Positions 1 to 5,746 of a stretch of DNA of 25,082 nucleotides are shown here, in pieces (positions within the stretch are counted from its first letter, which is position 1; each line of letters opens with the position of its first letter). The notes below the pieces were generated by a model that was given only the letters and a program-made list of their open reading frames with translations, was not told where the DNA came from and did no database searches. This DNA is from Thermoplasmata archaeon (GTDB lineage Archaea > Thermoplasmatota > Thermoplasmata > Lutacidiplasmatales > UBA184). The stretch covers positions 1 to 25,082 of the forward strand of contig JASHYY010000104.1 of the NCBI GenBank assembly GCA_030042815.1, given 5' to 3'. A program made the position numbers and the translations under genes.

Positions 1-234
1 AGCTTCCTCCGGCAGTTGATGCTCTACGGCTTCGAGAAGGCGAGCGCGGACCCCGCGGGATTCCTCCGCGAGGTCCGGGACGTCCACGACCCGCTGTTCG
101 GCAAGCGCGGCCGGTCGGAGGCGGGGTCGGACCGACGCGAGTCGTTGCTGGTCGCCTGGCAGGGATTCTTCCCCTCGCCGACCCCGGCCCCGACCCGACG
201 CCGACGCGCGGCGAAGGGCGAGGACGGGGCGTAG
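1..234 (+). CDS. 3' end of a hypothetical protein (5'-truncated by the window edge)
   Basis: Frame 1 is open from base 1 (SFLRQLMLYGFEKASADPAGFLREVRDVHDPLFG...) to TAG at 232-234 with host-like codon usage. No family recognised. Confidence 0.6.
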   Translation, partial: SFLRQLMLYGFEKASADPAGFLREVRDVHDPLFGKRGRSEAGSDRRESLLVAWQGFFPSPTPAPTRRRRAAKGEDGA

Positions 235-261
235 CCGCCGAGGGAGACCGGCCGTACCCCC

Positions 262-2136
262 ATGCCGCGCACGGTCGACCGGCTCGACGGGCTCGCGCTC
301 CTCGGCCGCGCGACGGTCGGCCCCGTACCCCTCGCCCCGCCCACGCTCCTGCGGAGCCGGCCCCCCGAGGCCGGGGAGGACGGGGTCTTCCTCACGGACC
401 GGCCGGCTCCGGCGGGGACGCGCCGCCTCGTCGTCTCGAACGGCCCCGCCTCCGTCGAGCTCCGGGTCCCCGTGCTCGCGCCCGAGGTCACCGGGACCGA
501 GCCGGGGGTGCACCCCGCGGGCGATCGGGCCTGGCTCCTCCACGCGCCGTTCGCTCGGGAGGCCGCGGCGGGCCTGCGCGCGGAACGCCCGGAGCTCGTC
601 GTGCTCGGGAACGCCCGGGCGCTCTGGAACGAGGGGCTTCCGTTCGTCCGGGCGCTCGGCGACGTGCGCGCGGCCGTCGGGGCCGCCCCGCTGCTCTGGG
701 CGCCCCGCGTCGCGCTGCCCCACCGGGTCCCGCTGCTCGTCTACCTCGGCGTCGACCTCCTCGACACGACGGAGGGGATGCTGCGGACCGCGCAGGGCGA
801 GTTCCTCGACCGGACGCTCGGGAAGCTCCCCCGCGACGACGTCCGGGCCGAAGCGGCGTGCGACTGCCCCTCGTGCCGGAGCACGCCCGCCGGCCCGCTC
901 GACCGCCATGCCGAATGGGCGTACGAGCGCGCGATCGCCGAGGCCCGGGCCGCGCTGCGCGCCGGCCGCCTGCGGGAACTCGTGGAGGCCCGCCTCCCCG
1001 CCGAGCCGGCGCTCGCGGAGTTGCTTCGCTACGCCGACCGCGACCTCGCCGGTCCCCTCGAGGAACGGGTGCCGGTCGTGGGGTCCGACCGCCGGGACTA
1101 CGTCCTCGCGGAGGCGCACCGTCGGCCCGAGATGACCCGGTTCCGCGCCCGGCTCCTCGAGCGGTACCGGCCTCCCCCGTCGAAGCGCGTCCTCTGGCTC
1201 GTCCCCTGTTCGAAGACGAAGCCGTACCGGCGCTCGCGCTCCCACCGTCGGTTCCTGAGCGCCCTCGAGGGGCTCGCCGGCGCCGAGCGGGTCCATGTCG
1301 TCTCGGTCAGCTCCCCGCTCGGCCTCGTCCCGCAGGAACTCGAGGACGTCGCGCCGGCCCGGCAGTACGACATTCCCGTGACGGGCGACTGGAGCGAGCC
1401 CGAGCGCGACGCCGTTCGGGAGGGCCTCGCGCACCTGCGTCGCCACGGGGCGTACGGCGCGGTCGTCGTCCACCTCGACCCCGAGGAGTATCGGTTCCTC
1501 GCCGCGGACCTTCCGTCCGGCCCGGACGTCGTCTGGACGGTGCCCGACGGCCGGACCACCGCCCCGGAGGCCCTGCGGCGGCTCCGCGAGGCGACCGGCG
1601 ACGGCCTCCGGGGCTCCGGCCCGGTGCCCGGCGGACCGCTCGCGGTCGTGCGCGAGGAGCTGCGGGAGGTCGCGAGCGTGCAGTTCGGCCGGGCCGCGGC
1701 GGAGGCCCTGTTCCGGCCTCCGCTGCGACTCGCGGGACGCCCGTGGTTCCAGCGGCTCACCGACGGGAAGACCGACCTCGCCACCCTGCGCGAGGAGCGC
1801 GGACTCTTCCACCTCACGGTCGCCGGGGCCCGGCGGCTCGGCCCGGCGCACCCGCTCGCGGTCGAGGTCGACCCCGCCCTGCCCCTCACGGGGGACCTCT
1901 TCGTGCCCGGCGTCCGCTCGGCCGACCCGGCGATCCGGGCCGGGGACTCGGTCGTTCTCCGACGGGACGGACGGCTCGCCGGGGTCGGCGAGGCGGTTCT
2001 CCCCGGGCCGCTCCTCACCGACCTCGAACGCGGGCTCGCGGTGCGCGTCCGTCACCGGGAGCACGCCGGGACCGACACGGCCATGACCGAGCAGCGGTCT
2101 CTCCCGGCGGACGACGGGCCGGTAGTCCAGCGGTGA
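262..2136 (+). CDS. arcS: Archaeosine synthase subunit alpha (ArcS/TgtA2): degenerate TGT barrel, ArcS core and C-terminal PUA domain
   Basis: Zn site CDCPSC...H, ArcS-typical LVPCSKTKPY-x-x-S-x-SH and VSSPLGLVPQELE motifs, and PUA-like GDLFVPGVRSADPAIRAGDSV. Confidence 0.9.
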   Translation: MPRTVDRLDGLALLGRATVGPVPLAPPTLLRSRPPEAGEDGVFLTDRPAPAGTRRLVVSNGPASVELRVPVLAPEVTGTEPGVHPAGDRAWLLHAPFAREAAAGLRAERPELVVLGNARALWNEGLPFVRALGDVRAAVGAAPLLWAPRVALPHRVPLLVYLGVDLLDTTEGMLRTAQGEFLDRTLGKLPRDDVRAEAACDCPSCRSTPAGPLDRHAEWAYERAIAEARAALRAGRLRELVEARLPAEPALAELLRYADRDLAGPLEERVPVVGSDRRDYVLAEAHRRPEMTRFRARLLERYRPPPSKRVLWLVPCSKTKPYRRSRSHRRFLSALEGLAGAERVHVVSVSSPLGLVPQELEDVAPARQYDIPVTGDWSEPERDAVREGLAHLRRHGAYGAVVVHLDPEEYRFLAADLPSGPDVVWTVPDGRTTAPEALRRLREATGDGLRGSGPVPGGPLAVVREELREVASVQFGRAAAEALFRPPLRLAGRPWFQRLTDGKTDLATLREERGLFHLTVAGARRLGPAHPLAVEVDPALPLTGDLFVPGVRSADPAIRAGDSVVLRRDGRLAGVGEAVLPGPLLTDLERGLAVRVRHREHAGTDTAMTEQRSLPADDGPVVQR

Positions 2137-2188
2137 AGACGTCGCGCTTACAACGCGGAGATCGGCGGTTCGAATCCGTCCCGGCCCA
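2116..2188 (+). tRNA. tRNA-Val (anticodon TAC), no encoded CCA, no intron
   Basis: Acceptor stem GGGCCGG/CCGGCCC plus discriminator A, D arm GTC..GAC with GG, anticodon stem TCGCG/CGCGG with loop CTTACAA (TAC at 2149-2151), T arm GGCGG-TTCGAAT-CCGTC. Confidence 0.96.
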
Positions 2189-2246: not shown

Positions 2247-2260
2247 GGGTAATTATACCC
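2247..2260 (+). promoter_or_regulatory. TATA-like element (TAATTATA) inside a GGGTA-N4-TACCC inverted repeat; likely promoter of the glycosyltransferase-mscS operon
   Basis: Strongest AT-rich patch between the tRNA and ATG 2406, flanked by a 5-bp perfect inverted repeat. Confidence 0.55.
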
Positions 2261-4735: not shown

Positions 4736-5746
4736 ATGGACCTCTTCACGCACGTCCTGATCGCCTACCTGATCTCGTACGCGATCTGGGGCCCAAACCA
4801 CCTCCAGTATGTCGCCGCCGGGGCGCTCGCCGGAGGCCTCCCGGACGGGGACATCCTCCTGTTTCCCCTCGCCCGACGCTTCCCCGCCCTGCGCCATCGC
4901 GGGATCGTGCACACCGTCCTCGGGGTGACCGTCCTCGCGGTGGCGGGGGCGTTCCTCGTTCCCCTCCTCCTCGCGGCGGTCGTCAATCCGGCGTTCGCGG
5001 CGGGCTCGGCGCTCCTCTACTTCGTCGCGATGGAGATCGGCAGCCTCAGCCACCTCGCGCTCGACGGGTTCACGAACTACCCGGTGCGACCCCTCGCCCC
5101 GTTCTCCCAGCGCGAGCTCCACCTCGACGCCGACCGGGCGGTCAACTTCGGCACCCTCGCCTTCACCGCGTTCTCGTTCTGGCTGATGCTCTACGAGATG
5201 GGCCGGGTGCCGATCCCGGTCTGGGAGACGACGGCGTGGCTGCTCCTGGCCGGGTACCTCGGGTACCTCGCCTTCCGCGGGGCCGCCCGATGGCGGGCGG
5301 GGCAGGCGGCGAAACGAGAGGGGTTCACCGCCGTGGCTCCGACCGACCACCCGGGGGTCTTCCTCCTGATCGAAGAGCGCCGCGACGCTCAGGGCGTCCG
5401 CCTGCGCCACGCCGAGTTTCACCTCCTCCGCGGGGTGCGCGCGACCGGCCCAACGCTCGAGTTCCCGTGGTCGGAGCCCTCGCCCGGACCGGTGGCGACC
5501 GAGGAGGACGCCCTCCGCGCCTCGTATCGGCCGGCGCTTGAGCGGGGGCGCATGCTCGAGATGACCTACCACTCCGCGGCGGTCCGCCCCGCGCCGGGAG
5601 GCTGGAAGGTCCTCTGGTACTCCCTCGAGTTCACGATGCTCGGCCGGGCCGCCGCGGTCCTCGCGACCGTCGACCGGACGACCGGCGCGGTCGAGACGAG
5701 GACCGCGTGGACGTCCCCGAGGAAGTTCCTCGCCGATAGCGGGTAG
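4736..5746 (+). CDS. Membrane-bound metal-dependent hydrolase (YbcI/YdjM-like) with C-terminal extension
   Basis: MDLFTH, LPDGD, HRGIVH and SHLALD motifs with several TM segments. TATA-like TTTTGAA at 4698-4704 supports ATG 4736 over 4691. Confidence 0.8.
   Translation: MDLFTHVLIAYLISYAIWGPNHLQYVAAGALAGGLPDGDILLFPLARRFPALRHRGIVHTVLGVTVLAVAGAFLVPLLLAAVVNPAFAAGSALLYFVAMEIGSLSHLALDGFTNYPVRPLAPFSQRELHLDADRAVNFGTLAFTAFSFWLMLYEMGRVPIPVWETTAWLLLAGYLGYLAFRGAARWRAGQAAKREGFTAVAPTDHPGVFLLIEERRDAQGVRLRHAEFHLLRGVRATGPTLEFPWSEPSPGPVATEEDALRASYRPALERGRMLEMTYHSAAVRPAPGGWKVLWYSLEFTMLGRAAAVLATVDRTTGAVETRTAWTSPRKFLADSG

What the first reader, a model, noticed from the sequence alone, without database searches (positions are those of the whole stretch)
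2044..2188. arcS reading frame ends inside the D-loop of tRNA-Val, just past the G15 that archaeosine modifies
Seen: the last codons (GGG CCG GTA GTC CAG CGG TGA) are tRNA nt 1-21. G15 is base 2130 and the stop is 2134-2136. The ~28-aa tail after the PUA domain looks non-conserved, and there is no clear TATA 25-35 nt before the tRNA. Known: archaeosine is placed at G15, and RNase P cuts at tRNA nt 1. Inference: if co-transcribed, tRNA 5' maturation would cut off the arcS stop codon and leave a non-stop mRNA. That could link tRNA processing to expression of a tRNA-modifying enzyme, or it may be a neutral stop-codon loss.
Basis: partly seen in the sequence, partly recalled or inferred. Interest (0 to 1): 0.6.

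Follow-up and report, generated by a model that had tools for sequence, protein, structure and literature searches.

The report
arcS gene ending inside tRNA-Val
In a family of uncultured soil and peat archaea, the gene for a tRNA-modifying enzyme (ArcS) really does run 15-21 bases into the neighbouring tRNA-Val gene, but this looks like a tolerated side effect of very tight gene packing in GC-rich DNA, not a designed control circuit.

Summary
The arcS reading frame (262-2136) ends at TGA 2134-2136, which is nucleotides 19-21 of tRNA-Val(UAC) (2116-2188). G15 is base 2130. Independent contigs show no indel.

The arcS/tRNA-Val pairing is found across the whole family, in all six genera that have arcS. 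The overlap occurs in 94 of 136 adjacent junctions of three genera. The stop is usually UAG at tRNA nt 13-15. It is absent from the three other genera (0 of 9).

The "conserved tail" is a DNA element (CGACA-N5-CWTGA; window 2073-2086), not a conserved peptide:
- It is kept in different reading frames.
- It lies where other tRNA genes of this genome have their BRE/TATA promoter.
- It stays in front of the tRNA when other genes separate the tRNA from arcS.

In many relatives the TGA inside this element is the arcS stop. The last eight codons before the tRNA evolve neutrally (pN/pS 0.9). In one close pair, a single TGA-to-TCA change creates the overlap.

Best reading: the tRNA promoter is embedded in the arcS 3' end, the arcS stop position drifts, and the tRNA D-arm supplies the next stop. 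Coupling through RNase P is neither excluded nor supported. The closest precedent is the bacterial selB/selC overlap. Two earlier notes of this scan saw the same overlap in relatives.

The parts
262..2136 (+). arcS (archaeosine synthase alpha subunit) reading frame, 624 aa, including the TGA stop
   Evidence: ORF list. NCBIfam NF040592 E 6e-112 covering residues 98-599. Pfam DUF5591, TGT_C2 and PUA. PCSKTKPY motif in the translation.
2059..2133 (+). 25-residue C-terminal tail beyond the end of the ArcS family profile (residues 600-624)
   Evidence: The profile ends at residue 599. Archaea of other orders and classes end at about query residue 599.
2073..2086 (+). Conserved DNA motif CGACACGGCCATGA, the probable degenerate BRE/TATA promoter of tRNA-Val, 43 to 30 nt before the tRNA. 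TGA 2084-2086 is out of frame here but is the arcS stop in many relatives.
   Evidence: Best PWM site in the window: 5.3 bits at -43. In relatives the best site is the same motif, at -40 in 65 of 92 overlap loci. The motif is kept in two or three codon phases. Synonymous diversity is halved there. It stays with the tRNA when arcS is separated from it. It occurs only once in the genome.
2087..2115 (+). Spacer between the motif and the tRNA. It is inside the arcS frame here but evolves like non-coding DNA.
   Evidence: For positions -24 to -1, pN/pS is 0.90 and GC3 is 0.64, against 0.32 and 0.88 in the PUA domain.
2116..2188 (+). tRNA-Val(UAC), anticodon at 2149-2151, G15 at 2130, no encoded CCA
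   Evidence: ARAGORN. Rfam RF00005, 66.5 bits. It is the only tRNA-Val(UAC) found in G000 and in G002.
2116..2136 (+). 21-nt overlap: arcS codons G-P-V-V-Q-R-stop are tRNA nt 1-21

Best explanation
arcS and tRNA-Val(UAC) are an old, very tightly packed pair of neighbours on the same strand, in a family of GC-rich soil and peat Thermoplasmata.

The tRNA has its own promoter in the roughly 45 nt before it, and this stretch has always overlapped the arcS 3' end. In one genus (g15) the promoter is a canonical BRE/TATA, and in two of its three genomes the box contains the arcS stop (TAA or TAG). In g17/g18 it reads GGTTGA(A/T)GTA, containing the arcS TGA. In g1/g19/g20 it has degenerated to CGACA-N5-C(A/T)TGA, whose TGA is still the arcS stop in many species.

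When a frameshift or point mutation removes that stop, the GC-rich 26-29-nt spacer rarely offers another one. Translation then runs into the tRNA gene and ends at a stop supplied by near-invariant D-arm nucleotides: U8-A9-G10, U13-A14-G15, or UGA/UAG at nt 19-22. The window belongs to the minority with C13, so it stops at UGA 19-21.

The added residues are not selected as protein, so the overlap is a tolerated and repeatedly arising by-product.

Shown: the overlap, its distribution, the motif, the neutral evolution of the spacer, and the instability of the stop position. Inferred: that the motif works as a promoter, that arcS mRNA reads through the tRNA, and that RNase P cleavage of such transcripts yields non-stop arcS mRNAs that are simply tolerated.
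For: 1. Distribution. arcS followed by tRNA-Val(TAC) is found in all six genera of the family that have arcS. In g1, 89 junctions overlap, 35 have an upstream stop and 2 have no adjacent tRNA. In g19 the split is 2 overlap to 4 upstream; in g20 it is 3 to 3. In g15/g17/g18 none of 9 overlap; their stops lie at -31 to -62.

2. Many different stop positions. Inside the tRNA: nt 13 TAG in 69, nt 19 TGA in 12, nt 8 TAG in 9, nt 20 TAG in 4. About 20 further stop positions lie upstream. L099 and L104 are 96% identical in the PUA region and differ by a single TGA-to-TCA change at -21, which creates the overlap. The window and L034 are a similar pair.

3. The motif is a DNA element.
- The C of CGACA is at codon position 3 in 73 overlap loci, but at position 2 in 24 and position 3 in 8 upstream-stop loci.
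- ACC-GAC-A shows no diversity even at synonymous sites, although ACC and ACG are used 47% and 51% of the time.
- pS in the motif is 0.31, against 0.56 in the PUA domain.

4. Promoter position. A BRE+TATA PWM built from 43 other tRNA genes of G000 and G002 has its modal site start at -39 to -41. In front of Val-TAC its best site is the motif, at -40 in 65 of 92 overlap loci. The g15 genomes have strong canonical sites there (8.8-10.8 bits).

5. Natural experiment. In five genomes arcS and the tRNA are 0.6-8.6 kb apart. In four of them the motif remains 37 nt before the tRNA in non-coding DNA; the fifth has a different AT-rich box. The arcS tails in these genomes lack the motif. In G070 a DUF6855 gene on the opposite strand lies between arcS and the tRNA, so that tRNA cannot be co-transcribed with arcS.

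6. The spacer evolves neutrally: pN/pS 0.90, GC3 0.64, no codon periodicity.

7. Stop codons are rare in this DNA: 0.018 per random codon, so a 9-codon stretch stays open with P = 0.85.

8. GUA is only 1.8% of Val codons, so this tRNA is in low demand and a weak promoter is plausible.
Against: - The motif is a poor match to the promoter PWM: about 5.4 bits, which is only the 95th percentile of random genome windows. Other tRNAs have a median of 10.5 bits. Its best 8-mer has 4 of 8 A/T. Promoter activity is therefore unproven.
- The overlap is the majority state in the largest genus and has survived much speciation.
- No genome uses the third phase, which would read through the whole tRNA. Some selection therefore acts on where the frame ends.
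- There is a weak excess of leader-trailer complementarity in overlap loci (mean z -0.68, against -0.25 in controls). This would fit longer leaders, meaning read-through precursors.
- No RNA data exist for this organism.
Confidence: 0.62

Rival explanations
1. Regulatory coupling. tRNA-Val is made mainly from arcS read-through transcripts. RNase P cleavage at tRNA nt 1 removes the arcS stop codon and creates a non-stop mRNA. ArcS synthesis and tRNA maturation are then mutually exclusive outcomes of one transcript, and this is used to tune ArcS levels.
For: - There is no AT-rich TATA before this tRNA, although nearly all other tRNA genes of G000 and G002 have one.
- The PWM score is only about 5 bits.
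- The overlap is present in 94 of 136 adjacent junctions in three genera.
- The phase that has no stop in the tRNA is never used.
- There is a weak excess of leader-trailer pairing.
- The same model was proposed for selB/selC in bacteria (PMC8124441).
Against: - The motif at the promoter position is conserved independently of reading frame, and it follows the tRNA when arcS is moved away.
- The overlap is gained and lost by single mutations between close relatives.
- It is absent from three genera that keep the same gene order.
- The overlapped codons and the spacer evolve neutrally.
- Nothing ties the arrangement to archaeosine. G15 falls in the stop codon because A14 and G15 are near-universal in tRNAs.
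Confidence: 0.15
2. The conserved tail (T-D-T-P-M-T-E...) is a functional C-terminal peptide of ArcS, for example a partner-binding or tRNA-binding extension, and the overlap exists to encode it.
For: Within the overlap class, the tail has constant length and contains a conserved stretch of about 7 residues.
Against: - The same nucleotides are conserved where they are read in another frame (P-P-T-P-T-stop) or lie in non-coding DNA.
- The variable positions within the motif are codon positions 2, 3 and 1, not just position 3.
- arcS genes that are separated from the tRNA lack the motif.
- ArcS of other orders ends at about residue 599.
Confidence: 0.04
3. Artefact: an assembly indel, a false tRNA call, or a mis-called ORF in GC-rich DNA creates an apparent overlap.
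For: In this genome long spurious open frames are common, and several run into other tRNAs. ARAGORN also makes doubtful calls inside coding-like DNA.
Against: - Independent contigs bridge the junction without gaps.
- The frame carries ArcS domains up to residue 599 and, in the same-genus G002 locus, the GC1/2/3 pattern of a real gene.
- The tRNA scores 66.5 bits.
- The same junction recurs in about 90 other genomes.
- The other long frames that run into tRNAs have off-frame GC patterns, and the five tested have no Pfam hits.
Confidence: 0.02

Closest known systems
selB/selC (tRNA-Sec) overlap in bacteria (Mukai 2021, PMC8124441), especially the partial overlap in Dyella, Luteibacter and Nitrospirae
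   Same: - The gene for a tRNA-handling protein runs, on the same strand, into the gene of a tRNA it acts on.
- The stop codon lies inside the tRNA.
- The C-terminal extension is a translation of tRNA sequence.
- The trait is conserved in a clade, yet close relatives have a new stop before the tRNA ("conserved but not essential").
- The same RNase P/non-stop model was proposed, also without experiments.
   Different: - This case is in Archaea, not Bacteria.
- The overlap is only 10-22 nt, ending in the D-arm, not at nt 46-48 or across the whole tRNA.
- ArcS acts on most tRNAs, so there is no one-to-one partnership as with SelB and tRNA-Sec.
- Here a promoter-like element for the tRNA is identified inside the protein's tail, and the tail is shown to evolve neutrally.
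Overlaps between protein genes and tRNA genes in animal mitochondria (as summarised in PMC8124441 and PMC4394434)
   Same: Compact genomes in which protein-coding frames overlap tRNA genes, and in which tRNA excision defines mRNA ends.
   Different: Mitochondria transcribe long polycistrons with no promoter per tRNA, and they complete stop codons by polyadenylation. Here the genome has individual BRE/TATA promoters, and the stop is a complete codon inside the tRNA.
Bacterial mRNA-tRNA co-transcripts such as E. coli secG-leuU (PMC2241853)
   Same: A protein gene is followed on the same strand by a tRNA, and the tRNA is released by RNase P.
   Different: In secG-leuU the coding frame ends before the tRNA, and co-transcription has been shown experimentally. 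Here the frame enters the tRNA, and co-transcription has not been tested.
Archaeal BRE/TATA promoters of tRNA genes
   Same: The motif has two parts: CGA(C/A)A, which resembles the CNAAA BRE of the other tRNAs, followed by C(A/T)TGA in place of TTAWAG. It has the same spacing and the same distance to tRNA nt 1.
   Different: It is much more GC-rich than the TATA boxes of the other tRNA genes in the same genomes, and its activity is unproven.

Membership tests
ArcS (archaeosine synthase alpha subunit) | ArcS-specific central domain (Pfam DUF5591) with the PC-X3-KPY motif | tested here: met
   DUF5591 E 1e-39. The sequence ...LVPCSKTKPYRRS... is present in the translation.
ArcS (archaeosine synthase alpha subunit) | C-terminal TGT_C2 and PUA domains | tested here: met
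   PF14810 E 4e-8 and PF01472 E 2e-8, ending at residue 598.
ArcS (archaeosine synthase alpha subunit) | Score above the curated NCBIfam equivalog cut-off | tested here: not met
   NF040592 scores 375 bits, against a cut-off of 440. The match covers residues 98-599 only, because the N-terminal TGT-like part is divergent. It is still the best-matching family by far, and the protein is conserved in 38 of the 41 genomes searched, G000 included.
ArcS (archaeosine synthase alpha subunit) | Lysine transfer to preQ0-15 of tRNA, acting together with RaSEA | not testable with these tools
   This is a biochemical activity. The function is known from the literature (PMC11298593 abstract).
tRNA (Rfam RF00005) | Complete cloverleaf scoring above the gathering threshold, with a defined anticodon | tested here: met
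   66.5 bits against a threshold of 29, model positions 1-71. ARAGORN calls Val(TAC). The cloverleaf is the only structure conserved across 60 relatives.
Same-strand ORF/tRNA overlap of the selB-selC kind | The stop codon of a real protein gene lies inside a functional tRNA gene on the same strand | tested here: met
Same-strand ORF/tRNA overlap of the selB-selC kind | The overlap recurs in related genomes, with some relatives stopping before the tRNA | tested here: met
   94 junctions overlap and 42 have an upstream stop in g1/g19/g20.
Same-strand ORF/tRNA overlap of the selB-selC kind | The tRNA is produced from the protein's mRNA, so the two products exclude each other | not testable with these tools
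   No RNA holder is listed for this organism. The indirect evidence points to a separate promoter for the tRNA.
Archaeal BRE/TATA promoter | Element at the distance from the gene that is seen for other tRNA genes of the same genome | tested here: met
   The best site starts at -40 (at -43 in the window), against a mode of -39 to -41 in 43 other tRNAs.
Archaeal BRE/TATA promoter | Sequence match to the genome's own BRE/TATA consensus | tested here: inconclusive
   About 5.4 bits. The median for other tRNAs is 10.5 bits, and the 95th percentile of random windows is 5.4 bits.
Archaeal BRE/TATA promoter | Directs initiation about 25 nt downstream (a mapped transcription start) | not testable with these tools
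   This needs 5'-end mapping or in vitro transcription.

The most novel reading that the evidence does not exclude
arcS read-through transcripts are a real source of tRNA-Val(UAC). RNase P cleavage at nt 1 turns them into non-stop arcS mRNAs, while ribosomes that reach the tRNA 5' strand block tRNA folding. Output of a tRNA-modifying enzyme and maturation of one of its substrates would then be mutually exclusive fates of one RNA. This would be an archaeal counterpart of the selB/selC model, kept in about 70% of a large genus, with ArcS or ArcTGT possibly binding the tRNA-shaped 3' end of the arcS message.
Probability: 0.12. Interest if true: 0.7.

Novelty: new member of a known kind. Interest (0 to 1): 0.36.

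Why it matters
It is a clean, well-replicated archaeal example of a protein gene that ends inside a tRNA gene: about 90 genomes, several independent origins, and natural "controls" with earlier stops or with the two genes separated.

It illustrates three general points:
- In very GC-rich, compact genomes stop codons are scarce, so the near-invariant D-arm nucleotides of a tRNA can act as a backstop for a neighbouring gene.
- A promoter can persist inside a coding tail and can look like a conserved peptide.
- Gene callers that forbid CDS/tRNA overlap will mis-annotate such genes.

If the read-through transcripts are processed by RNase P, this clade would also give a natural series of genomes for studying how archaea handle non-stop mRNAs. 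As it stands, the evidence points to a tolerated by-product, so the biological importance is modest.

Tried and rejected
- RNA evidence: no RNA holder is listed for this stretch. Only DNA contigs could be laid on it, and these served only to exclude an indel.
- Conserved RNA structure upstream of the tRNA: RNAalifold on 60 junctions finds only the cloverleaf.
- Leader-trailer pairing as a sign of long leaders: there is a weak trend (z -0.68 in overlap loci, -0.25 in other tRNAs, Mann-Whitney p = 0.04). Relatedness was not corrected for, so I treat this as inconclusive.
- Oligo-T terminators after the tRNA: a run of four or more T within 60 nt occurs in only 12 of 139 loci, which is uninformative.
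- The bacterial sigma-70/terminator scan is irrelevant for an archaeon.
- Is CDS-into-tRNA overlap general in this genus? In G002, 13 other long open frames, at 11 other tRNAs, run into the tRNA. They have off-frame GC patterns, and the five tested have no Pfam hits, so they are spurious. arcS is the only real gene doing this among the G002 tRNA loci.
- Is the motif a repeated regulatory element? The strict motif occurs only once in G000.
- The search for related loci returned only one locus. It gave the taxon label (a Thermoplasmata archaeon soil MAG) and nothing more.
- No formal tree of gains and losses was built, because only about 200 nt of arcS was fetched per genome. Instability of the stop is argued from closely related pairs instead.
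- The literature searches found no archaeal precedent. The library holds open-access papers only, so this is not proof that none exists.
- Unpublished genomes: G019 (L020) appears in the listing but is excluded from all tallies. G177 and G178 were not fetched.
Full report
**1. The observation**

The + strand ORF 262..2136 (624 aa) ends GGG CCG GTA GTC CAG CGG TGA. ARAGORN and Rfam (RF00005, 66.5 bits, full-length) both place tRNA-Val(TAC) at 2116..2188. The stop 2134-2136 is therefore tRNA nt 19-21, G15 is base 2130, and the overlap is 21 nt.

The ORF is ArcS. It has Pfam DUF5591 (E 1e-39), TGT_C2 and PUA domains. NCBIfam NF040592 matches at E 6e-112, although its 375 bits fall below the curated 440-bit cut-off because the N-terminal part is divergent. 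The PCSKTKPY motif is present. The family profile ends at residue 599, so residues 600-624 (2059-2133) form an extra tail.

A 968-nt contig from a public peat metagenome matches 1700-2167 without any difference or gap. Two strain variants also bridge the junction without gaps. An assembly indel is therefore excluded. No RNA run is listed for this organism.

**2. Distribution**

The window comes from a 57%-complete MAG of a soil/peat Thermoplasmata lineage. In the first 20 same-genus junctions, arcS was always followed by tRNA-Val(TAC), and in 17 of them the frame ran into the tRNA (one of the 20, L020 from G019, is unpublished and is excluded from the counts below).

I then surveyed the whole family: 180 genomes in 7 genera. 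About 145 junctions were fetched and classified:

| Genus | Overlap | Stop upstream | No adjacent tRNA |
|---|---|---|---|
| g1 | 89 | 35 | 2 |
| g19 | 2 | 4 | – |
| g20 | 3 | 3 | 3 |
| g15/g17/g18 | 0 | 9 (stops at -31 to -62) | – |

Inside the tRNA, the stop is UAG at nt 13-15 in 69 junctions, UGA at 19-21 in 12 (when nt 13 is C or G, as in the window), UAG at 8-10 in 9, and UAG at 20-22 in 4. The third phase has no stop anywhere in the tRNA, and no genome uses it. Archaea of other orders and classes showed no tRNA-Val next to arcS.

**3. The "conserved tail" is a DNA element**

Aligned on the tRNA start, genera g1, g19 and g20 share ACCGACA-N4/5-C(A/T)TGA(C), ending about 26-29 nt before the tRNA. 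Four observations show that the nucleotides are conserved, not the peptide:

- In overlap genomes the motif is read as T-D-T-P-M-T. In the commonest upstream-stop class it is read one phase off, as P-P-T-P-T-stop, and its TGA is the arcS stop.
- The C of CGACA sits at codon position 3 in 73 overlap loci, but at position 2 in 24 and position 3 in 8 upstream-stop loci.
- Synonymous sites of ACC-GAC-A are invariant, although ACC and ACG are used almost equally (47% and 51%).
- pS in the motif is 0.31, against 0.56 in the PUA domain.

The eight codons between the motif and the tRNA behave like non-coding DNA. Their pN/pS is 0.90 and GC3 is 0.64, with no codon periodicity. The PUA domain has 0.32 and 0.88.

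**4. The element sits where tRNA promoters sit**

Other tRNA genes of this genome and of the near-complete relative G002 carry obvious AT-rich boxes preceded by CNAAA. A 14-nt BRE+TATA PWM trained on 43 of them has its modal site start at -39 to -41 and a median score of 10.5 bits.

In front of tRNA-Val(TAC), the best PWM site is the conserved motif. It starts at -40 in 65 of 92 overlap loci and at -43 in the window (2073-2086). The score is only about 5.4 bits, which equals the 95th percentile of random windows.

In genus g15 the same place holds a strong canonical box (8.8-10.8 bits). In two of its three genomes the box contains the arcS TAA or TAG stop. In g17/g18 the sequence GGTTGA(A/T)GTA contains the arcS TGA. 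The arcS stop has therefore long lain inside or next to the tRNA promoter.

GUA is the rarest Val codon (1.8% of Val codons, 1.6 per 1000 codons). A weak promoter for this tRNA is therefore plausible.

**5. Natural experiment**

In five genomes arcS and tRNA-Val are no longer adjacent but lie 0.6-8.6 kb apart.

- In four of them the motif remains 37 nt before the tRNA, in DNA with no coding signature. The variants are CGACAGGGCCATGA, CGACAATTCCATGA, CGACATCTCCATGC and CCAAATCTCCATGA.
- The fifth has a different AT-rich box.
- The arcS genes of these genomes end without the motif.
- In G070 a DUF6855 gene on the opposite strand lies between arcS and the tRNA, so that tRNA cannot be co-transcribed with arcS. 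It is still preceded by the same kind of element.

The motif therefore belongs to the tRNA, not to ArcS.

**6. The stop position is unstable**

L099 and L104 are 96% identical in the PUA region. They differ by a single TGA-to-TCA change at -21, which extends the frame to UAG 13-15. The window and its close relative L034 differ by a TGA at -7. L051 and L077 have a new TAG in the spacer.

With a stop probability of 0.018 per random codon, a 9-codon spacer stays open 85% of the time. Once the old stop is lost, running into the tRNA is therefore the default outcome.

arcS is the only real gene doing this among the G002 tRNA loci. The other long open frames that run into G002 tRNAs have off-frame GC patterns, and the five tested have no Pfam hits.

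**7. Mechanism: what is shown and what is inferred**

Shown:
- The overlap and its phylogenetic spread.
- The frame-independent motif at the promoter position, which follows the tRNA.
- The neutral evolution of the spacer.
- Repeated gain and loss of the overlap.

Inferred:
- The motif is a weak BRE/TATA promoter that gives tRNA-Val a very short leader (about 0-5 nt).
- arcS transcripts read through this promoter and through the tRNA.
- RNase P can cut such transcripts at nt 1 and leave non-stop arcS mRNA. This would be tolerated, either through rescue by the archaeal Pelota/ABCE1 system (my own knowledge of that pathway, not tested here) or because translating ribosomes keep the tRNA 5' strand unfolded.

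G15 falls in or next to the stop codon because A14 and G15 are near-universal in tRNAs. I see no evidence of a functional link to archaeosine.

**8. Evidence that keeps the regulatory reading alive**

- The promoter match is weak.
- The overlap is the majority state in the largest genus.
- The phase without a stop in the tRNA is avoided.
- Leader-trailer complementarity is slightly higher in overlap loci (inconclusive).

I put the regulatory reading at about 0.15.

**9. Comparison with what is known**

The closest published case is Mukai 2021 (PMC8124441). There the bacterial selB frame contains or partly overlaps tRNA-Sec, and some relatives have a new stop before the tRNA. The trait is described as "conserved but not essential", and the same RNase P/non-stop hypothesis is proposed. 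Overlaps between protein genes and tRNA genes in mitochondria, and mRNA-tRNA co-transcripts such as secG-leuU (PMC2241853), are more distant parallels.

I found no archaeal example in the open-access library. Two earlier first-reader notes of this scan saw the same 15-nt arcS/tRNA-Val overlap in related genomes.

**10. Verdict**

It is best explained as a neutral or nearly neutral consequence of a tRNA promoter embedded in the arcS 3' end, with the tRNA D-arm supplying the next stop. It is a new (archaeal) member of a known kind of overlap. Interest is moderate to low unless RNA data show coupling.

Noticed in passing
G002 loci L174/L188 (tRNA-Met at G002:C2:150277-150352, with a partial tRNA-like match at 150154-150207); G000 contig C153, tRNA-Met at 5460-5538: This tRNA-Met(CAT) is the other tRNA that lacks a TATA-like box (PWM about 2 bits). 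Roughly 70 nt upstream there is a tRNA-like fragment with a T-arm-like GGTTCGAA. It may be a tandem, co-transcribed or split tRNA arrangement.
   Followed up: no
L201 (G155:C22:36933-36959) and L202 (G070:C8:83201-83225): Copies of only the last 25-27 nt of tRNA-Val(TAC) lie 0.7-2.2 kb downstream of the full gene. This is the usual footprint of an integrative element that used the tRNA 3' end as its attachment site.
   Followed up: no
L191:887-1327 (-), between arcS and tRNA-Val in G070; probably similar in G068 and G069 (L134, L149, whose downstream sequence is alike): In G070 a DUF6855 gene (E 4e-66) on the opposite strand sits between arcS and tRNA-Val. A glyoxalase-family gene follows the tRNA.
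   Followed up: partly
G000 contigs C2, C39, C48, C84, C130, C189: ARAGORN-96-nt "tRNAs" in coding-like, GC-rich sequence with no promoter box. These are probably false positives. I excluded them from the promoter training set.
   Followed up: partly
Upstream regions of tRNA genes in G000 and G002: The BRE/TATA boxes of tRNA genes start 39-41 nt before tRNA nt 1. This implies primary transcripts with leaders of only a few nucleotides in this lineage.
   Followed up: partly
window 2128 and 2137 (tRNA nt 13 and 22): The window's tRNA-Val has C13 opposite A22, a mismatch at the last D-stem pair. Most relatives have U13-G22. This tRNA substitution moves the ArcS C-terminus from ...GPVV to ...GPVVQR.
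   Followed up: partly
window 232-264: arcS starts 27 nt after the stop of the upstream same-strand ORF, and the gap has no AT-rich box. arcS is probably part of an operon.
   Followed up: no
window 2247-2260: An AT-rich GGGTAATTATACCC box lies about 150 nt before the glycosyltransferase ATG at 2406. This implies a long leader, as another first-reader note already flagged.
   Followed up: no
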